A stretch of 63,603 nt of DNA, counting the filler, from Reticulomyxa filosa (lineage: Eukaryota > Protista > Foraminifera): assembly GCA_000512085.1 (NCBI GenBank). It is 11 parts of 11 records of this genome, joined end to end, with 100 filler letters (N's around TTAATTAATTAA, not from the genome) between each part and the next. Parts side by side here need not be neighbours in the genome. Positions count along the whole stretch, not along the records: positions 18,027 to 24,463 come from ASPP01019500.1; 10 more parts are not named here. One strand, given 5' to 3'. Below, in pieces: positions 1,873-34,902 of the stretch (positions are counted from its first letter, which is position 1; each line of letters starts with the position of its first letter). The position numbers were made by a program, and so were the translations under genes. Under the pieces are notes generated by a model that saw nothing but the letters and a program-made list of their open reading frames with translations, searched no databases and was not told the DNA's origin.

Positions 1873-3082
1873 GTGATTTATACAAGGTGTTATTAGCTCA
1901 TTTGTAAAAAGTGTTAATTTTTTTTCTAGTTGTTTTTCTCCCTCACTACTCAAAAGTAAATCTACGGTGTTTTTTCCACATTCCTCGAAGACAATTTCTG
2001 AGGAACTTAATCCTTTTTTGTTTCTTTTGTTTGTTTCTTTTGTTTTTATTCCTGTCCGGAAAGAACTCAAAAACTCACATTTCACAGAAAATTTTTTCGA
2101 AGTCAACAATCGTGATTTGTGAGTATTGTGATCTTGCAGATCGGAAGTTGTTAAGTCTGGACAAAATACTTTGAAACAAATAATTTGCTTAGTTCTCAAT
2201 GTCTGAGAAGGTCTTAAATCGAAAAATGCAAAAAAATAGCATTTTTCCTTTTGCTAACTAATTTCATAAATATATTAAATTCGAGCAATCTATAAAATAG
2301 TGGGGAAAAGGCGTGATTAGGTCAAAATAACAATATCCCAGGACATTTATTTGACAAGGAACTTCAAAATTAAAAAGGCTGATTTGTTAAAAACTGATTT
2401 TAGTTCATATATAACCGATTATTCATGATAAATAAACAATTTTTTTCATTATGGCTAATATTTTGGCCTGTTCAAAAACATGTAGGGCAAGTCCGTACTG
2501 TAGACGGTTGAACTCTGAAATCTTTGAGGAGCCCCCAGTGGACTAAACTTCTTCACCAACTTTCTTCACTTCTTGTTTTTGTTTTCTTTCTGTATTGTGT
2601 TATTATCTTTTATTCGTTAATTCCCTATTGTTTTATCGAAAGCAGTTTTCTTCGATTAGAAAACTTTTCGTGTTACTTTTAGTGCAGCTGACATCCCACA
2701 AACATATGATTACACTGCACGTTTGCATTACTGTTGAGAAAATAAGAAAAAATAGTTAATCAATTCGATGAAAGACTTATAATCCTTCTCAAAACATTTA
2801 AAATAAAAAATAAACGTGAAAAATTGTTTTGTTGGTTGTAGTTTCCAAATATGTTTTTAAAAATTAAATTTTTCACAATTAATAGTTTCTAAATTATACA
2901 ACACATGCACCAATAACACTTTATTCCTACTATTAATCCGACATTTTGAACAAAAATTAAGAGTCGTTGCTGTATTTTCACGTGAGAAAACATAAAAAAG
3001 AAAAGAGTTATTTAGTGAACAGTGAAACGAAAGGTAAAGTTTTTTTGGGAAATTGGAGTGATCATTCCCAGAAACAGAGAGT

Positions 3083-18139: not shown

Positions 18140-18234
18140 CTTCAGAAAACACCCTCTTCGAAACTCATAACTTCAGCTCCCAATCATTGCATTTAAAGGA
18201 TATCTTTTATATCTAAGGTCAACGAAATTTATTT

Positions 18235-18311
18235 TTGGTTAACTTCCTGTGCAGCAGTTAACCAGCGTTGTGTTTAATTTGTCCTTCAAAGCTGCCTGTG
18301 CGGCAGTGAAC
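18235..18311 (-). CRISPR. Orphan mini-array / crRNA-like unit: repeat, 21-nt spacer, degenerate repeat
   Basis: 18311-18284 reads GTTCACTGCCGCACAGGCAGCTTTGAAG (27/28 to the main repeat). The spacer is GACAAATTAAACACAACGCTG (18283-18263). 18262-18235 reads GTTAACTGCTGCACAGGAAGTTAACCAA. Confidence 0.9.
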
Positions 18312-18504: not shown

Positions 18505-18534
18505 TTCTGTCGCAAATGCAATTTTGCGACAGAA
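18505..18534 (-). terminator. 12-bp hairpin directly after the BON gene (probable terminator)
   Basis: TTCTGTCGCAAA-tgcaat-TTTGCGACAGAA is a perfect inverted repeat 2 nt past the stop codon. There is no clean U-tract. Confidence 0.55.
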
Positions 18535-18536
18535 CC

Positions 18537-18917
18537 CTAATTTATAATCTTAAGATGCGATTCAACCTCCTTTACTCCCTCTACTCTCTTTGCAACTTCT
18601 ATCGCATGTAACTCTGTATCCTTATCAGACACCTCTCCTGTTAGACATACTTTTCCCTCTTCGCTCTTTATTGCAATATTGAAAGATTTGATCTTCTCAT
18701 CAAAGGTATATTTACTTTTGATCTCCGCAATTATTTTCTCATCTAAATCTTTCACCGCTTCGGCTACTTTTACTGTTATCTCGGGCTTTACTTCCTTCAC
18801 TCCTTCAACACTTTTCGCTAGCGCTATCGCTTTATCTTCTATAGAACTTGAACTAACTTCACCTCTTAATGTAACTACCCCATTTACTGTTTCTACATGC
18901 AAGCTATTACCCTTCAT
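18537..18917 (-). CDS. BON-domain protein (OsmY-like, two BON domains), 5'-truncated
   Basis: LHVETVNGVVTLRGEV...AKSVEGVKEV and IKSEEGKVCLTGEV...AKRVEGVKEVESHL; no signal peptide. Confidence 0.85.
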   Translation of the reverse strand: MKGNSLHVETVNGVVTLRGEVSSSSIEDKAIALAKSVEGVKEVKPEITVKVAEAVKDLDEKIIAEIKSKYTFDEKIKSFNIAIKSEEGKVCLTGEVSDKDTELHAIEVAKRVEGVKEVESHLKIIN

Positions 18918-18979: not shown

Positions 18980-19465
18980 TTATTTTGTTACTTCTATCTT
19001 CTTGATATGAGCTTGACTATTTGTGCTCTTTGGTATCTCTATGTCAAGAACTCCATTCTTGAATCGCGCAACTATTTTATCTGCTTCTATAGCTTCCGGC
19101 ATAGAAAATGACCGTTCAAACATCCCGTAACTCCTTTCCATTATATAATGTTTCCCTTCCTTCTCTTTTTTCTCTTTCTTCTTCTCTCCCTTAATCGTCA
19201 GTACGCCATTACCGATGCTCAACTCTATGTCCTTCTCTGATAGACCTGGCAACTCTGCACTTACCTTATACCTATCAGCTTCTTCCATTATATCCACATC
19301 TAGACAAAGCATTTGATTGTCTATTTCCTTACCAAATCCTTCGTATCCAAAATCTTTTAAACAATCATTAAATAATTTATCCATCTCATAATGCATACGA
19401 CCAAATGGACTTACATTCTTCACTTGCCCTCTTTTAAAATCCCATGGTGTTAAATTCCTTCTCAT
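18980..19465 (-). CDS. Hsp20/alpha-crystallin small heat-shock protein
   Basis: VDIMEEADRYKVSAELPG..DIELSI.NGVLTIKGEK..ERSYGMFERSF..ARFKNGVLDIEIPK..KKIEV; GGAGG RBS at 19475-19471 before ATG 19465. Confidence 0.95.
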   Translation of the reverse strand: MRRNLTPWDFKRGQVKNVSPFGRMHYEMDKLFNDCLKDFGYEGFGKEIDNQMLCLDVDIMEEADRYKVSAELPGLSEKDIELSIGNGVLTIKGEKKKEKKEKEGKHYIMERSYGMFERSFSMPEAIEADKIVARFKNGVLDIEIPKSTNSQAHIKKIEVTK

Positions 19466-19501
19466 ATTAACCTCCAATCAACAGTTATTTCTTATCTATT
19501 A

Positions 19502-19529: not shown

Positions 19530-19699
19530 CCCTTAATACTCTCTCTTTTTCATCTTGCCTAATCTCCTGCCTATAATTATTAAAACATCGCTAAATAACT
19601 CTACAAAAATCTGTATTCCAATCCAGCCCTCACAATTTGATATCTGGACTTTTGCTCATATGAATAACTTGGTTGAAAATGTTAAATCACATTAGGGTT

Positions 19700-19721
19700 G
19701 TATTCCCCGCCGCTTGCGGCG
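19700..19721. repeat. GC-rich hairpin resembling an IS200/IS605 subterminal palindrome remnant
   Basis: TTCCCCGCCGCTTGCGGCG in an otherwise AT-rich intergenic region. Confidence 0.35.
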
Positions 19722-20090
19722 TAATATATTTGCATGAGCGAATATATACATAAGTCATAATGTAACGGTGCTAGTGTATCATCTAGTATTTCCAGCTAAG
19801 TATAGAAGAGCAGTATTTTTTGGATGCTCTTATATTAAGTGTAAAGGAAAAAGCGTCTTCTGCATTGTTCATTAGATATGCAGAGCTGATGAGAACAGTA
19901 GATGGCCTTTACAATATTTCACAAAAAAGTGCAGAAGAAGCCTATATATAGAAAAGTTACTTTGTAATAACCCCCGAAAATCAGACCAATAGTAGAGAGA
20001 CATTTTAGATAAAAGAAATATATAAAAAATGTCACAAAATAATTGGTAAAAAAATGACAAAGCAAAAAAGTTATACAAACGAATTTAAAT

Positions 20091-20762
20091 TCATTCTTTT
20101 ATACCACCAGCTGCATTAGCCAATTGATTTGAAAAAGGTAGTAAAAAATCTTCACATTCTTTTGAATTTTGAGGAAGTGATTTAATAATGACTTCTTTAA
20201 AAAATAAATTTGGTTTATTTACTACTCTAACAGGTTCATCATTAAGATGGTTAAAACGCAGATCTTCATTCTGCGATCTTAATACCATGCCATTCGTTCC
20301 AAGCATAGTTACAAATAACGTTATAGGGGCTTCTATACCTAAATTATAAAGGTTTTTTATATAAAGTTGTGTTGATTGTTTTATATTATCTTCAATGCAA
20401 GATGTCTCCATTCCAGAATCAATCGTTCTAACAGCTTCTACAATTCCAGAATTAAACACCGTAGTATAGCAATGCTCTGTCTGTGCTTGTTGATCATTAT
20501 TAGAAAAAAAAGAAATTTCCTCAATGTCTATTTTGTCATAAGTTGTATAATTCCTACCCATTGGAGTAAATTTTAGTTCCTTTTGCTTTATTTCATCGGG
20601 AGTCGTATATTGTTGAAATTCAAAGGCAGAATGTGGGATTAGATGCATAACAAGAAGCATATTACTTGATAAAGCTACAGGTGTAGCACCATTAATTATC
20701 TTTGAAATCCTTTCATTCCTAAACTTACTAGCATTAAATTCTGATAATTTATGCATGCCCAA
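20091..20762 (-). CDS. Protein resembling the C-terminal half of AlbA_2/Schlafen-domain proteins, N-terminal domain absent
   Basis: FRNERISKII.G.TPVAL....LVMHLIP.SAF...YTTVFNSGIVEAV...LGIEAPITLFVTMLG...QLANAAG, recalled from that family; needs HMM confirmation. Confidence 0.5.
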   Translation of the reverse strand: MGMHKLSEFNASKFRNERISKIINGATPVALSSNMLLVMHLIPHSAFEFQQYTTPDEIKQKELKFTPMGRNYTTYDKIDIEEISFFSNNDQQAQTEHCYTTVFNSGIVEAVRTIDSGMETSCIEDNIKQSTQLYIKNLYNLGIEAPITLFVTMLGTNGMVLRSQNEDLRFNHLNDEPVRVVNKPNLFFKEVIIKSLPQNSKECEDFLLPFSNQLANAAGGIKE

Positions 20763-21270
20763 ATAAATATGAAGATATGTATTCTATAGAGGAGATAAGA
20801 AAGTCACTATTCTGATCCATAGAGAAGTCTTCTTCTAAGTTAGACAGGGCTTTTTCTATTTTTTCTTCTGTTGGACGAGCATTTTTAGCTTTTAACTCTT
20901 CTTGGTGCAACTTTTGTCCTCTTTCTATTTCCCGCATCATAGCCTGTCTTTCTTCTGCAGTAAAGCTAGACACTACTTTTTCTTCTGTTGGACGAGCATT
21001 TTTAGCTTTTAACTCTTCTTGGTGCAACTTTTGTCCTCTTTCTATTGATCGCATCATAAAATCGTCTTCGGTCTCTGGGAATAGATAAAATTTGTCATTT
21101 CCTACTTCGTTTTCTTTTTTGGCGAATTTCCCTCTACTATAGAAAGCATCATCTAAGACATTCATATTTTCTTTCATAAGAGTTAATAGATCAGTAAATG
21201 CAACAGAAAGCACTGATTCTATTTTCTTAAATCCTTCAATATAATCTTCTTTAAATCCCATATAATACAC
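20749..21270 (-). CDS. Hypothetical protein with an internal duplication at a 39-aa period
   Basis: MMR(S/E)IERGQKLHQEELKAKNARPTEEK occurs twice; DNA copies at about 20860-20939 and 20977-21056 (117-bp period). Confidence 0.7.
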   Translation of the reverse strand: MYYMGFKEDYIEGFKKIESVLSVAFTDLLTLMKENMNVLDDAFYSRGKFAKKENEVGNDKFYLFPETEDDFMMRSIERGQKLHQEELKAKNARPTEEKVVSSFTAEERQAMMREIERGQKLHQEELKAKNARPTEEKIEKALSNLEEDFSMDQNSDFLISSIEYISSYLFGHA

Positions 21271-21307: not shown

Positions 21308-22645
21308 TTATGCATCTGGCAATGCTTTTGTAATGTTAGAGTTACCATAAAATGCTTGATTTAAAATATCTTGAGAATTTACTATATCATATTCATGATA
21401 TTCACTCATATCAACACGTTGACTATCTACTTGTGTATGCAATCCTGATATAAAACCTGTCTCATCAGATTTTTCTACTTTTATAATCGAAGCATTCAGT
21501 ATTCTTTCATTTATCAAATGATCACTAACGCCTTTCATAGGGAAGATATACTTACAATTTGTTGTTGAAAAAGATGCCTGATTTTCTAAATCATCACATT
21601 CTTTTTTCTTTGAATCATCATTAGCTTTCGCTGATGGGATTCTAATAAAGCAACTTGACCGCGCTATGTGCTTTTCAATAGCTAGGCCAAAGCACATGTT
21701 TTTGTATATATCAATTAAGTATGTTCCTATTAATTGAAATTGTTCATGGACTGCGCGCGTTGTGTTTTCTGTGTTTAAATCCTGCATATCACTTAATATT
21801 GTATTTAATATTTCTTGAGCAGATGTCATATTTTTTTTTGAGTTTTGTACTCCATCATTTGTTTCGTTTTTAGACCATAGTTTATCTAAACGAAATAATT
21901 TAGCTGCTCCGTAAACAACTTTCATTATTATATTAGGGTCAGTTGTTTCATTTTTTGAGGCTGTTTGATAAGTTTTTCTTTCATCCATAAATAATATTTG
22001 AGCATAGCTTTTGTGAAATTCTTTGATATGAGTTTGGTATTCTTCTAGCACTTTATGTTTGCGCAAAAATTCATTATACGTTTCAAATTCTTTTTTCAGG
22101 GATATAAAAGGCTCATCCTTCATTAATATTGCCAACTCTTTTAATCCTTCTACAGTATTCTCTTTTAAAGTCCCTTCATACTTTGTTTTAAGGTTACTTT
22201 TTATTAAGTTACCCTGATCAATAATATATCCATTCTTCCCTAGATTTTCATTAGCGGTTAAAAGTTTTTTTATTTTACTAATTTCATATAGCTCTTCTTC
22301 AGTAACCGATCCTTGGTTAAAATGATTGTATAAAGGTTTAACTCCATTATCCTGAAATTGAAGCTTTTCATTAATATCGACTAAGTAGTTTTCTATATTT
22401 TTCCAACTGCCGTCTTTTTGAGCAAGGGTGTCGTACTCTTTTGCTTTACCTTCTAATACACAACTGAAAAGATACTCTTTCCATTCTTTGTTTATCACGT
22501 CGTAATTGGCAGAAAACGCATCTGTGACTTGTTTATACTTCTCAATTAGTTCTAAAATCTTTTTAGAGTTTCTGACATTTTCAAAGGCTTGCTTATCATC
22601 TATTTCTGAAGCTTCCCATAGGTTTGTTCTTACATTTTCTGGCAT
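21308..22645 (-). CDS. Hypothetical helical protein, 445 aa
   Basis: Long intronless ORF with no recognisable motif. Confidence 0.7.
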   Translation of the reverse strand: MPENVRTNLWEASEIDDKQAFENVRNSKKILELIEKYKQVTDAFSANYDVINKEWKEYLFSCVLEGKAKEYDTLAQKDGSWKNIENYLVDINEKLQFQDNGVKPLYNHFNQGSVTEEELYEISKIKKLLTANENLGKNGYIIDQGNLIKSNLKTKYEGTLKENTVEGLKELAILMKDEPFISLKKEFETYNEFLRKHKVLEEYQTHIKEFHKSYAQILFMDERKTYQTASKNETTDPNIIMKVVYGAAKLFRLDKLWSKNETNDGVQNSKKNMTSAQEILNTILSDMQDLNTENTTRAVHEQFQLIGTYLIDIYKNMCFGLAIEKHIARSSCFIRIPSAKANDDSKKKECDDLENQASFSTTNCKYIFPMKGVSDHLINERILNASIIKVEKSDETGFISGLHTQVDSQRVDMSEYHEYDIVNSQDILNQAFYGNSNITKALPDA

Positions 22646-22879: not shown

Positions 22880-23114
22880 TTAGGAAGTGTAAGAAAAGGG
22901 TATTCCTAACCGAGTATAGACTAAGAATAGAAAGAGTGATATGCGGTTGTTGTAATTGATGATAAGTGTTTCTTTTAAAGCCTTATCAAGGAAGTAAGAA
23001 CCAATCAATATTTTTCTGTGAATATCAAGTTTTTCCTGTTGAGTTTTTTTAGAGACTACAGCTTTTAGGATTTTTGCATTAATGGTATTCTTTTTTGTTT
23101 GAGCTTCGTAAAAA
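22880..23114 (-). pseudogene. TraD/mobilisation accessory protein remnant interrupted by IS3
   Basis: The minus strand reads KNTINAKILKAVVSKKTQQEKLDIHRKILIGSYFLDKA, like plasmid TraD/Mob small proteins (..DTRRKILIG.Y.LD.A). The start is lost at the IS end. Confidence 0.55.
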
Positions 23115-23417
23115 TGTCCTTGCCCCGTAAAATTGATGCAGAACTTGGTTAGTAAAAATAAAGCAAAAGAGCTAGCCTGGAATCAATAGCAAATGGAGAA
23201 AGATCGTGGGAAAAAAGAACCACAATAGTGAAGAAATTATAAGAATACTACGGCAAGGAGAAGTCTTACTTGGCCAAGTAAAAAGATTGAAGAGATATGT
23301 AAGGAATTGCAAATATCAGATGCAACGTATTATAAGTGGCGTAAAGAATATGGAGGCATGCAAGTATCGCAAGCAAAGCGGTTAAAGGCACTTGAACTTG
23401 AGAATTCCCGTTTGAAG
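23115..23417 (+). mobile_element. Truncated IS3-family (IS407-like) element: left IR plus frameshifted orfA
   Basis: TGTCCTTGCCCCGTAAAATTG left end. GTG at 23206 gives MGKKNHNSEEIIRILRQGEVLLGQ, then a frameshift near 23280, then KKIEEICKELQISDATYYKWRKEYGGMQVSQAKRLKALELENSRLK. No orfB. Confidence 0.88.
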
Positions 23418-23454
23418 TTAACTGCCGTACTTAATTGATATTGATTCTTCTTCA

Positions 23455-23602
23455 CTTCAAAGCTGCCTGTGCGGCAGTTAACCTCTTTGTTTTTCGTATT
23501 CATTCAAAATGTGCCTTCAAAGCTGCCTGTGCGGCAGTTAACTATAATAACCTTTATAGCATCCAGCCATTTATCTTCAAAGCTGCCTGTGCGGCAGTTA
23601 AC
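23455..23602 (-). CRISPR. Type I-F CRISPR array: three identical 28-bp repeats, two complete 32-bp spacers, plus a third spacer slot at 23423-23454
   Basis: GTTAACTGCCGCACAGGCAGCTTTGAAG (minus strand) at 23575-23602, 23515-23542 and 23455-23482; 60-bp period; CTGCC/GGCAG Cas6f stem. Confidence 0.98.
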
Positions 23603-23733
23603 CCAAGCATTTAAAGCTAGCAAGGTATATATATAGCGGCATTTTAAGTAATTTACCATAAAAACCATTATTTTTAGATATGCAATAAAAAGCCTGATTC
23701 CAGAGGCTTTCAAAATTACTAAAAAAATTTTGG
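23603..23733 (-). promoter_or_regulatory. CRISPR leader
   Basis: AT-rich non-coding 131 bp between the cas6f stop and the first repeat. Confidence 0.8.
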
Positions 23734-24306
23734 TTAAAAAAATGGTACCGTTGCATTATAACTTAAACCAAAAGTATCAAATCTACCCTTATGTTCTATT
23801 TTTTCTTTTTTAATCTCTATATATCTTCTGTATTTTTGTCCAGTTGAATAACTATATAACTCTAAATATGCATTAGATAAACTTCCCATACACATTTTAA
23901 TTTTATATTTCTTTATACCATCCGTCTTGATGGAGTTCCTTTTTCTTAATCTTCTCAGTTTAGCATTGCTCATATTTTGTTGTACGCGTGATATAATTCT
24001 ATACTCTTTAATTACCGAAGGTATAGATAATATATTGCTCAAGATACAATTTTGCTTTAAATCTGCTACTAACTGTAATGCCACTGATAACTTCTTTAAG
24101 CTCTCTTCGCTTGAATGTATTCTTAAAATTCTTCCAAGAGATTGATATCCATCTTCATATTTTATATATTGCGGAAAATCTATCCCTATATCACTTGAAT
24201 TCATCTCATATAAAATCTTGTGCACTTCATTACAAATATTGTTGCGCAATATATTCAAGCTTACTGTATTATTTGGCTTAATTGTGAGATCAATGTAGTG
24301 CCCCAT
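23734..24306 (-). CDS. cas6f: CRISPR endoribonuclease Cas6f (Csy4)
   Basis: HYIDLTIKP..VHKIL..IGIDFPQY..LGRILRIH..AKLRRLRKR..S.STGQ..GRFDTFGLS..ATVPFF. Likely start is ATG 24306. Confidence 0.96.
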   Translation of the reverse strand: MGHYIDLTIKPNNTVSLNILRNNICNEVHKILYEMNSSDIGIDFPQYIKYEDGYQSLGRILRIHSSEESLKKLSVALQLVADLKQNCILSNILSIPSVIKEYRIISRVQQNMSNAKLRRLRKRNSIKTDGIKKYKIKMCMGSLSNAYLELYSYSTGQKYRRYIEIKKEKIEHKGRFDTFGLSYNATVPFF

Positions 24307-24313
24307 ACTTAAC

Positions 24314-24463
24314 TCAAAGTCTAATGCTGTTAACATAAGCTAACCCCTTTTTGCCCAAATAAAAACTTGAAACACCTGCATATTCCATCAGCTTATATAT
24401 CTCCTCAGCTTTGCCTCTATCAATATTTAAGCTTATTTTTAGTTCTCCACTAGCTTTCTTAAG
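24314..24463 (-). CDS. cas5fv: C-terminal 49 aa of a Cas5-family protein, probably Cas5fv (type I-F2)
   Basis: Translates as [49 protein letters not shown], with the Cas5 Gly-rich loop (YLGKKG), directly upstream of cas6f. Confidence 0.78.
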
Positions 24464-33650: not shown

Positions 33651-33820
33651 GACCGGACGCGTCCGGGTGCAGCGTCAGCAACCAGGCAAACAGCGTCAGG
33701 CTGGCCGCCGCCGGCAGCAGCACCCACACCGACGCCCCCTGCTTCAGCCACAGCCACGGCAAATAGCAACCGATGATTTCGGCCAAGGCAGTCACGGACA
33801 AACAGGGCAAAGGTACGCAT
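33651..33820 (-). CDS. ynfA: YnfA (UPF0060) small membrane protein, partial, with a 1-nt frameshift
   Basis: [56 protein letters not shown]. Confidence 0.9.
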
Positions 33821-33984
33821 GGGGCTTGTGTTCCGGTGGTGCGGGAAGGTGGCGGAAAATGGCCGCGCCGTGTAGCGGCGGCGGCCTAGGACTGACTGAA
33901 AACCGGCATGCCATGCGGTTTTATTCAAGAACAGGTCGACACGCCTGAGTAAGCTGGCGTCTCTAATCACAGGGAACCACTACC

Positions 33985-34443
33985 ATGCGTATCGACTATT
34001 ATGCCTTTGCTGCACCGGCCATGAAGATCATGATGGCGCAAGAAAGCTACCTGCATGAACAGTTTGCACGGTCTGACACCTTGACGCTTGCAACCTGGGA
34101 GCTGGTCAAGCTGCGGGTTTCACAGATTAACCAGTGTGCTTTTTGCCTTGACCTGCACAGCAATGAGGCATTGGAGGGCGGAGAAAGTTACACGCGCATC
34201 ATAGGCTTGAGTGCTTGGCGCGATATGCCGATATACAGTTCCACTGAACGTGCAGCACTGAGCTGGGCCGAGTTAGTCACATCCGGTCAACGTATTGAGG
34301 ATCAGCACTTTGACGATGCGAAAGCAACGCTAGGCGAGCAGGCCGTGGTGGAGCTGACCATTGCGGTCAATGCCATTAATAGCTGGAATCGTTTGGTGAA
34401 GGCATTCAAACCCGAGGTAACCAGCCATAACAAACCGCGTTAA
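33985..34443 (+). CDS. Carboxymuconolactone decarboxylase / AhpD-like protein
   Basis: ELVKLRVSQINQCAFCLDLH (CxxC..H), ERAALSWAE, INSWNR. Confidence 0.92.
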   Translation: MRIDYYAFAAPAMKIMMAQESYLHEQFARSDTLTLATWELVKLRVSQINQCAFCLDLHSNEALEGGESYTRIIGLSAWRDMPIYSSTERAALSWAELVTSGQRIEDQHFDDAKATLGEQAVVELTIAVNAINSWNRLVKAFKPEVTSHNKPR

Positions 34444-34448
34444 ATCCA

Positions 34449-34902
34449 GTGCGTTCGACTTCAAGCTGCGCAAGCCTGACAAGCAGCTTGAAGCCGTGGT
34501 ACAGGCCGTATGGTCTGCTGCGGTATGCGCCGATCACCCCGGGCCGGTTATCAGACGCCTTTACTCTGATGCCAGCAGCGGTATTTTGTTTGCACTGGCC
34601 GGCAAGATCGAGATTAATGATATTGGCTTACCGCACGGGGTAATTCTGTGCCCGGTGGCTAAATCATCCGGCGAGGTGACGCTATACCCCGGTTCTCGCC
34701 TAGCTGGTATCCGCTTTCATCCGGCAACAGCGTATGGTGTTCTTGGCCAGCACTATGAAGACATGACGCGGCTTGCCCCTGCCGACGATCACCGTCATGC
34801 GCTGTATTCTCTCTACCAGCAACTGTCGGATTGTGACGATACGCACAGCCACCTTGAGCTACTCAGCCACTGGGCGGAGGTGCATCTTGTTTTACGGCAA
34901 CT
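34449..34902 (+). CDS. AraC-family regulator, N-terminal part (partial, frameshifted)
   Basis: LKP../VQAVWS..LYSDASSGILF..LAGIRFHP..GVLG is typical of the N-terminal domain of this AraC subgroup; the HTH would lie beyond the contig end. Confidence 0.7.

What the first reader, a model, noticed from the sequence alone, without database searches (positions are those of the whole stretch)
18235..18311. Stand-alone short-spacer crRNA-like unit with a remodelled 3' repeat, 5.1 kb from a type I-F2 array
Seen: one intact repeat (Cas6f stem CTGCC/GGCAG and 8-nt handle CTTTGAAG; one base differs from the array repeat), then a spacer of only 21 nt against 32 in the array, then a second repeat whose changes look non-random. 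Its 3' end became GTTAACCA, which pairs with TGGTTAAC at the spacer/repeat junction. This gives a 9-bp stem (TGGTTAACT/AGTTAACCA), while the canonical Cas6f stem is weakened (CTGCT/GGAAG) and the next 5' handle is destroyed. It has the same orientation as the array, with five ORFs in between. Known: repeat-short spacer-degenerate repeat units act as CreA antitoxins or CreR autoregulators, solitary repeats can be RNA anti-CRISPRs (Racr), and type I Cascade backbone length scales with spacer length, with short guides favouring binding over cleavage. Inference: this is a dedicated non-interference guide (repression, addiction or decoy) for the minimal I-F2 Cascade. I do not know of a described I-F2 example. 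No PAM-flanked target is visible in the window, and the cas promoter is off-contig.
Basis: partly seen in the sequence, partly recalled or inferred. Interest (0 to 1): 0.85.

Follow-up and report, generated by a model that had tools for sequence, protein, structure and literature searches.

The report
Stranded CRISPR fragment with short spacer
A real one-spacer CRISPR piece sits 5 kb from its parent array, beyond broken mobile elements, and is most likely a stranded leftover rather than a dedicated regulatory guide, because it lacks the nearby target and the layout of the likely self-regulating guides found in other CRISPR systems of the same compact type.

Summary
The unit is there as described: a near-perfect repeat, a 21-nt spacer and a damaged second repeat with a 9-bp stem, beside a confirmed type I-F2 locus on a 6.4-kb bacterial contig. 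A transposase (IS3-like) remnant cuts the main array inside its fourth repeat, an IS200 remnant lies between array and unit, and a second inverted-copy event sits at the array end, so the 'remodelled' 3' end can come from one template-switch mutation. A survey of 90 I-F2 loci found 8 mini-arrays that look like self-repressing (CreR) guides: 12-20-nt spacers, antisense just before cas7fv, a CC-PAM target within about 110 nt, a diverged first repeat and an intact second stem. The window's unit has none of these except the short spacer, and no target lies in the contig. Still, 21 nt is shorter than all 2,962 array spacers counted and close to the 20-nt guide class, so a guide acting on an off-contig target stays possible (about 0.3). 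No close relative, genome or reads were available. The best by-product is the I-F2 CreR-like class, which I found only as a one-line count in print.

The parts
18284..18311 (-). Repeat 1 of the stand-alone unit: intact Cas6f stem and 8-nt handle, 27/28 identical to the array repeat
18263..18283 (-). 21-nt spacer; no CC-PAM target in the contig or window
18235..18262 (-). Repeat 2: Cas6f stem with a G.A mismatch and a U.G wobble, handle replaced
18236..18264 (-). Extended hairpin (9-bp outer stem); 3' arm is a reverse-complement copy of the canonical 5' arm at 11 of 12 nt
18163..18242 (-). 3' flank with a weak, post hoc resemblance to a collapsed copy of the array leader
18142..18168 (-). 8-codon ORF after a GGAG motif; continues in frame after its stop, probably a pseudogene start; no tandem proline codons or hairpin
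18505..18534 (.). 12-bp inverted repeat after the BON gene, without a U tract; possible partial terminator between BON and the unit
18537..18917 (-). Two-BON-domain protein (OsmY-like)
18980..19477 (-). Hsp20 small heat-shock protein
19679..19875 (+). IS200/IS605 tnpA remnant
   Evidence: PF01797, E 0.016, below cut-off; blastn E 1e-26 to an annotated tnpA
20091..20762 (-). 223-aa ORF, no family found
20749..21270 (-). 173-aa ORF with an internal 39-aa duplication, no family found
21308..22645 (-). 445-aa ORF, no family found
23176..23417 (+). Frameshifted transposase orfA remnant (IS3-like), cut off where it meets the array
   Evidence: E 9e-6 to an annotated IS3 transposase; PF01527, E 6.5e-14
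23416..23422 (-). First 7 nt of the array's fourth repeat, at the canonical 32-nt distance, then cut by the transposase remnant
23423..23454 (-). Array spacer 3; its last 8 nt are an inverted copy (7/8) of repeat positions 7-14
23455..23602 (-). Main type I-F2 array: three repeats, two 32-nt internal spacers
23603..23733 (-). Array leader
23734..24336 (-). cas6f (Csy4)
24314..24463 (-). 3' end of cas5fv, cut by the contig end

Best explanation
The unit is most likely an orphaned fragment of the neighbouring type I-F2 array, probably separated when mobile elements broke the array and then worn down, not a selected regulatory guide. Shown: a transposase remnant joins the array inside its fourth repeat, IS debris lies between array and unit, and repeat 1 carries the array's own rare handle at 27/28 identity. 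Inferred: the spacer lost 11 nt by deletion; the 3' end of repeat 2 was rewritten in one template-switch (fold-back) event that copied the 5' arm, and two later substitutions broke the Cas6f stem. If read-through from the hsp20-BON genes reaches it, Cas6f would cut repeat 1 and release a handle-bearing RNA with no known target; that would be a by-product.
For: IS3-like orfA remnant ends exactly in repeat 4, with a 2-nt overlap; IS200 remnant between array and unit. Same strand as the array; repeat 1 is 27/28 to the array repeat whereas the first repeats of the I-F2 CreR-like units are 19-20/28 in the 6 of 8 loci where an array was visible. No CC-PAM target: best seed run 2 nt within 300 nt (1525 of 2000 shuffles do as well), against 12-18 nt and 0 of 2000 for each of the eight comparators; none in the contig either. 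Repeat 2's 3' arm is the reverse complement of the canonical 5' arm at 11/12; the array's spacer 3 shows a second inverted copy (7/8), a level reached by 0 of 2,845 spacers of other arrays; template switching can create a perfect stem in one event (PMC8794818 abstract). Arrays split by insertions occur in other I-F2 loci (L006, with a Tn3-like element and a stranded repeat-spacer-decayed repeat; several arrays in pieces in L053, L055, L061, L064). Shortened spacers without a local target occur inside arrays (G442 20 nt twice; G346 28 nt; decayed G195 23 and 27 nt).
Against: Displaced or terminal units elsewhere keep their length: 0 of 29 recognisable decayed terminal units (74 array ends examined) have a spacer under 30 nt or an extended stem like this; the looser scan gave 27-28 nt at three array ends. 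0 of 2,962 internal spacers in the fetched loci are under 30 nt. 21 nt is close to the natural short-guide lengths (20 nt in L167, L170 and phage locus L104; CracrIF2 21 nt). No remnant of a preceding repeat or target-site duplication was recognised upstream of repeat 1, and repeat 1 has the family-common base at position 4 while repeat 2 has the array's base, which does not fit simple trailer polarity. Three separate rare events are needed.
Confidence: 0.55

Rival explanations
1. A trans-acting crRNA-like regulator (CreR/CreA/Cracr type): Cas6f cuts repeat 1, Cas5fv and about four Cas7fv load on the 8-nt handle and short spacer, the long hairpin protects the 3' end, and the short Cascade binds a CC-flanked site in an off-contig promoter (cas7fv operon or a toxin) without cleavage.
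For: Spacer length is outside the array distribution and matches known I-F1 guides: CreA1 20 nt, viral Cracr 17-21 nt. I-F2 Cascade assembles on 14- and 17-nt spacers and loses immunity at -6 and -18 nt. I-F2 loci carry such guides (8 of 90). Intact repeat 1 with a degraded repeat 2 is the layout reported for mini-arrays. The cas promoter lies off the contig, so an autoregulatory target cannot be excluded.
Against: All eight I-F2 comparators are antisense, 117-185 nt before cas7fv, with the target 66-112 nt away; the window covers 6.1 kb upstream and about 250 nt downstream of the spacer start with no target. All eight keep at least 4 of 5 stem pairs in repeat 2 (7 keep 5). No sigma-70-like promoter is called near the unit (a weak scan). 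No window-like unit (near-perfect first repeat, far from cas genes, no local target) was recognised in 100 distinct I-F2 genomes; G451 is the one unclear case.
Confidence: 0.3
2. A decoy (Racr-like or sponge) RNA: transcribed with the stress genes hsp20 and BON, it would bind Cas6f at repeat 1 and tie up Cas5fv/Cas7fv on a target-less guide, damping the system.
For: Repeat 1 is a perfect Cas6f substrate; RacrIF1 works through an intact stem and non-targeting crRNAs also compete for Cas proteins (PMC10651486 passages). The unit lies 225 nt after BON on the same strand, among mobile-element debris.
Against: Racrs are solitary repeats with their own strong promoter in mobile elements; here there is a second repeat, no promoter call and a 12-bp hairpin between BON and the unit. 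No anti-CRISPR neighbour was recognised.
Confidence: 0.1
3. Assembly or amplification artefact: collapsed repeats or template-switch chimeras shortened the spacer and made the inverted copies.
For: A noisy assembly gives many short spacers (G067, 11-28 nt). The contig is a bacterial piece among eukaryote-like contigs.
Against: The long ORFs of the contig are intact and the three array repeats are identical.
Confidence: 0.05

Closest known systems
Type I-F1 regulatory mini-arrays / CreR (Shmakov et al. 2023, 10.1101/2023.03.03.530964 = PMC10120712; Liu et al., 10.1101/2023.03.10.532045)
   Same: Good first repeat, short spacer, degraded second repeat.
   Different: Those lie between cas3 and the effector operon, antisense to cas3, with a CC-PAM target in the adjacent promoter; the unit is 5.4 kb downstream of cas6f, in the array's orientation, with no target in view.
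P. aeruginosa CreA1/CreA2 (10.64898/2026.06.02.729485)
   Same: 20-nt spacer class; first repeat keeps the handle, second loses it.
   Different: Both CreA repeats keep the Csy4 hairpin and a target plus creT toxin gene lie nearby; here the second stem is broken and neither target nor creT-like element was found.
Viral Cracr RNAs (10.1101/2024.10.29.618823)
   Same: 17-21-nt spacer, target in trans, mobile-element setting.
   Different: The unit sits next to its own cas genes and shares their array's rare handle; no acrIF24-like neighbour was recognised; the two phage mini-arrays fetched here (L104, L105) keep intact second stems and end in terminator-like hairpins.
RacrIF1 solitary repeat (PMC10651486)
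   Same: An intact Cas6f stem outside an array.
   Different: Racr is one repeat under its own promoter in a prophage; this is a two-repeat unit beside the host system.
Array trailers displaced by insertions (example found here: L006)
   Same: Repeat-spacer-decayed repeat stranded several kb from the array behind a mobile element.
   Different: L006 keeps a 32-nt spacer and has no extended stem.

Membership tests
Type I-F2 CRISPR-Cas locus | cas5fv directly before cas6f | tested here: met
Type I-F2 CRISPR-Cas locus | cas7fv, cas2-3, cas1 present; no cas8f | not testable with these tools
   contig ends inside cas5fv; no other cas gene in the window; no genome held
CreR/CreA crRNA-like regulator | First repeat with Cas6f stem and 8-nt handle | tested here: met
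CreR/CreA crRNA-like regulator | Spacer shorter than array spacers | tested here: met
   21 versus 32 nt
CreR/CreA crRNA-like regulator | Second repeat keeps the Cas6f hairpin | tested here: not met
   3 Watson-Crick pairs, 1 wobble, 1 central mismatch, base buried in a longer helix
CreR/CreA crRNA-like regulator | PAM-flanked seed match in a nearby promoter | tested here: not met
   none in the 6.4-kb contig
CreR/CreA crRNA-like regulator | PAM-flanked seed match elsewhere in the genome | not testable with these tools
   no genome held; cas promoter off-contig
CreR/CreA crRNA-like regulator | Conserved in related loci | tested here: inconclusive
   no close relative found: best Cas6f 46-48% identity, no hit for the 445-, 173-, 223-aa or BON ORFs in the fetched loci
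CreR/CreA crRNA-like regulator | Expressed, processed, represses without cleavage | not testable with these tools
   needs RNA data and experiments
CreTA | Adjacent creT toxin whose promoter is the target | tested here: not met
   one SD plus 8-codon ORF without tandem proline codons or hairpin; no target; only 208 nt are visible downstream
Racr | Solitary repeat with its own promoter in a mobile element | tested here: not met
   two repeats with a spacer; no promoter call
Displaced array fragment | Mobile-element break in the parent array | tested here: met
Displaced array fragment | Array-length (about 32 nt) spacer retained | tested here: not met
   21 nt; 0 of 29 decayed terminal units under 30 nt

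The most novel reading that the evidence does not exclude
A trans-acting short guide for the minimal I-F2 Cascade whose 3' end is capped by its own 9-bp hairpin instead of by Cas6f, giving a Cas5fv plus three-to-four Cas7fv complex that represses a distant promoter: an array fragment caught in the act of becoming a regulator by one fold-back mutation.
Probability: 0.12. Interest if true: 0.65.

Novelty: new member of a known kind. Interest (0 to 1): 0.33.

Why it matters
If it is a stranded fragment, it matters little: it shows how insertion, deletion and fold-back copying can make something that mimics a regulatory guide, a caution for scans that call such guides from shape alone. If it is a guide, it would extend RNA-guided self-regulation to the smallest type I system and show a Cas6f-independent 3' cap. 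The firmer gain is the by-product: eight I-F2 loci with 12-20-nt guides whose CC-PAM targets change in step with the spacers, which makes I-F2 autoregulation directly testable; in the papers searched I found it only as a table row (I-F2: 33 loci, fraction with a mini-array 0.04).

Tried and rejected
No whole genome is held and no sequencing run was listed (no RNA holder listed, which is no evidence either way). No close relative: protein search, plasmids, 80 of 283 genome loci, 17 distinct metagenome loci with the same handle, viral contigs. Exact spacer: 0 viral matches; CC plus seed with positions 6 and 12 free: 5 viral hits at 17-18 of 21, none complete, treated as chance; no CC plus 9-position seed match in 1.47 Mb of fetched loci. 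Array spacers against phages: one 21-nt hit at E 0.5, ignored. A leader upstream of the unit: not significant (270 of 1000 shuffles; 15 of 60 identities next to the repeat). A collapsed leader copy downstream: two colinear 10-mers in 5 of 3000 shuffles and 1-10 of 600 for the first 80 nt, but 14-178 of 600 for the whole flank; post hoc, kept as a weak hint. An 8-nt deletion inside repeat 2 explains positions 1-20 but leaves the following 7-nt complement to chance (about 9e-5). The unknown ORFs gave no family; the protein atlas did not answer. The primary paper on Csy4 stem requirements was not held, so the expectation that an extended, mismatched stem resists Cas6f is recalled knowledge. Earlier scan findings by sequence and place gave nothing. 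G067's short spacers were set aside as a noisy assembly; five pattern hits (G005, G416, G422, G449, G467) as chance; G464's unit was left out of the I-F2 count because its contig shows no Cas5fv/Cas7fv hit.

Full report
Observation. The window is eleven contigs joined by N-flanked linkers; the finding lies on a 6,437-bp bacterial contig (18027-24463) among eukaryote-like ones. On the minus strand there is a repeat at 18311-18284, a 21-nt spacer and a second repeat at 18262-18235. The first repeat is 27/28 identical to the three repeats of the array at 23602-23455 and scores above Rfam's CRISPR-DR4 cut-off; the second is not found by Rfam. The extended 9-bp stem is the predicted fold, and the Cas6f stem of repeat 2 has a central G.A mismatch and a U.G wobble. 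The locus is type I-F2: Cas6f preceded by the C-terminus of Cas5fv.

After spacer 3 the array has the first 7 nt of a fourth repeat at the canonical distance and is then cut by a frameshifted transposase orfA remnant on the opposite strand (PF01527, E 6.5e-14; blastn to an annotated IS3 transposase); the two overlap by 2 nt. An IS200/IS605 tnpA remnant lies at about 19679-19875. The genes between are hsp20, a BON protein and three ORFs without a family. So the array was broken by mobile DNA, and the unit lies on the far side of the debris, in the array's orientation, with the array's rare handle (only 17 distinct metagenome loci and no viral contig matched the repeat patterns with this handle).

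The 'remodelled' 3' end. The 12-nt 3' arm of repeat 2 is the reverse complement of the canonical 5' arm at 11 of 12 positions. One template-switch event can write such a stem (PMC8794818, abstract seen; quasipalindrome mutation papers seen as a search listing only), so seven coordinated changes need not mean seven selected changes. A second inverted copy lies at the array end: the last 8 nt of spacer 3 match the reverse complement of repeat positions 7-14 at 7/8, which 0 of 2,845 spacers from other arrays reach. Both events involve the self-complementary hexamer that starts this array's repeat. A weaker alternative, that the 3' flank is a collapsed copy of the leader, was significant only post hoc. 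From recalled knowledge of Csy4 (primary paper not held), a mismatched stem whose base is buried in a longer helix would be a poor substrate; RacrIF1 work confirms that stem changes abolish Cas6f use (PMC10651486 passages).

How unusual is 21 nt? In the loci fetched by then (80 of 283 genome loci, plasmid, viral and metagenome loci; mostly I-F2) 0 of 2,962 unique internal spacers were under 30 nt, and of 74 array ends 29 had a recognisable decayed terminal repeat, all at 30-35 nt and none with an extended stem; a looser scan gave 27-28 nt at three ends. A displaced trailer in L006 keeps 32 nt. So plain displacement does not explain the unit. A whole-genome pattern scan of 100 distinct I-F2 genomes, with a pattern the window's unit would match, did find shortened spacers inside arrays with no local target (G442 20 nt twice, G346 28 nt, decayed G195 23 and 27 nt) and a noisy array (G067). 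Deletion to this length is rare but happens.

What a real I-F2 regulatory guide looks like. Of 90 distinct loci with at least 200 nt visible before cas7fv, 70 have cas2-3 abutting it; 8 of the other 20 carry a mini-array (loci whose cas7fv start was not matched were not counted). All eight are antisense, 117-185 nt before cas7fv, with spacers of 12-20 nt and a CC-flanked match of 12-18 positions 66-112 nt away, each specific to its own locus and reached by 0 of 2000 shuffles. Their first repeats are 19-20/28 to the array in the six loci where an array was visible, and their second repeats keep the stem (5/5 pairs in seven, 4/5 in one). Four were found by repeat shape before any target search (L013, L062, L077, L170), four through the target match, and some are close kin, so they are not eight independent tests. 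The window's unit shares only the short spacer: best CC-anchored run 2 nt nearby, none in the contig or window, none in 1.47 Mb of related loci, chance-level viral matches, and no promoter call near it.

Literature. Short-spacer guides are established for I-F1: regulatory mini-arrays (10.1101/2023.03.03.530964 and PMC10120712, passages and Table 1; two held supplement files searched), CreA1/CreA2 with 20 and 26 nt (10.64898/2026.06.02.729485, parts 1-2 of 6 read), viral Cracr with 17-21 nt (10.1101/2024.10.29.618823, passages), CreR (10.1101/2023.03.10.532045, passages) and CRISIS (10.1101/2024.12.27.630466, passages). I-F2 Cascade assembles on 14- and 17-nt spacers and loses immunity at -6 and -18 nt (PMC4937334, passages). 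For I-F2 guides I found only the table row of 33 loci with a mini-array fraction of 0.04; unseen supplementary tables may hold more. Earlier scan notes describe I-F examples with local targets and one stranded, unconvincing I-G case; they were not tested and are not used as support.

Verdict. Shown: the unit, the I-F2 locus, the mobile-element break, the missing local target, and a distinct class of I-F2 CreR-like guides that the unit does not resemble. Inferred: the unit is a stranded, worn array fragment (0.55); a trans-acting guide with an off-contig target (0.30), a decoy (0.10) or an artefact (0.05) remain. No close relative, genome or read set could be used, so conservation and expression are open. 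Even if functional it would be a new member of a known kind. Interest 0.33, part of it owed to the I-F2 CreR-like class found on the way.

Noticed in passing
L013/L171 (Psychrobacter sp.), L019 (Moraxella canis), L062, L077 (Methylococcales MAGs), L167-L170 (G079, G036, G096, G260): Eight type I-F2 loci carry a two-repeat mini-array antisense 117-185 nt before cas7fv, spacers 12, 13, 14, 14, 14, 14, 20, 20 nt, each matching its own CC-PAM site (runs of 12-18, 0 of 2000 shuffles; off-diagonal at most 8). L168 and L169 differ at one spacer position and their targets differ in step. Four were found by repeat shape first, four by the target match. CreR-like autoregulation in I-F2.
   Followed up: yes
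window 23416-23430: The end of spacer 3 plus the start of repeat 4 would have formed a near-perfect 22-nt palindrome; the array is cut one base past its central hexamer. 0 of 2,845 other spacers end in such an inverted copy.
   Followed up: partly
L006 14632-18704: I-F2 array split by an integrase plus Tn3-like transposase, leaving a repeat, a 32-nt spacer and a decayed repeat 4 kb away.
   Followed up: partly
L104 about 2996-3075 (+) and L105 about 2950-3050 (-): Phage-borne type I-F mini-arrays with 20-nt and 14-nt spacers followed by terminator-like hairpins; Cracr-like. Targets not sought.
   Followed up: no
L173 1573 (-) (G464) and L172 219 (+) (G451): Stand-alone units with 26-nt spacers; G464 has a CC-PAM target (run 15) 292 nt away on a cas6f contig without Cas5fv/Cas7fv hits; G451 has no cas gene on its 3.5-kb contig and only a partial site with a seed mismatch.
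   Followed up: partly
L035 5043 (-): Stand-alone repeat with a 32-nt spacer antisense between cas2-3 and cas7fv; no target found.
   Followed up: no
L165 (G442): A 20-nt spacer present twice in tandem inside an ordinary array.
   Followed up: no
window 22880-23182 (-): Open frame without a start that recalls a plasmid mobilisation accessory protein (recalled resemblance; only phrog_461 at E 0.0024).
   Followed up: no
window 19679-19818: The IS200 remnant's closest plasmid matches include Candidatus Megaera polyxenophila (about 79% identity), a hint that the host may be a protist-associated bacterium.
   Followed up: no
window as a whole: Eleven contigs joined by N-flanked linkers; those tested around the bacterial contig look eukaryotic (WD40, TPR, TRAF zinc finger, TFIID subunit), and 33651-34902 (56% GC, CMD-family gene) may be a second bacterial piece.
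   Followed up: partly
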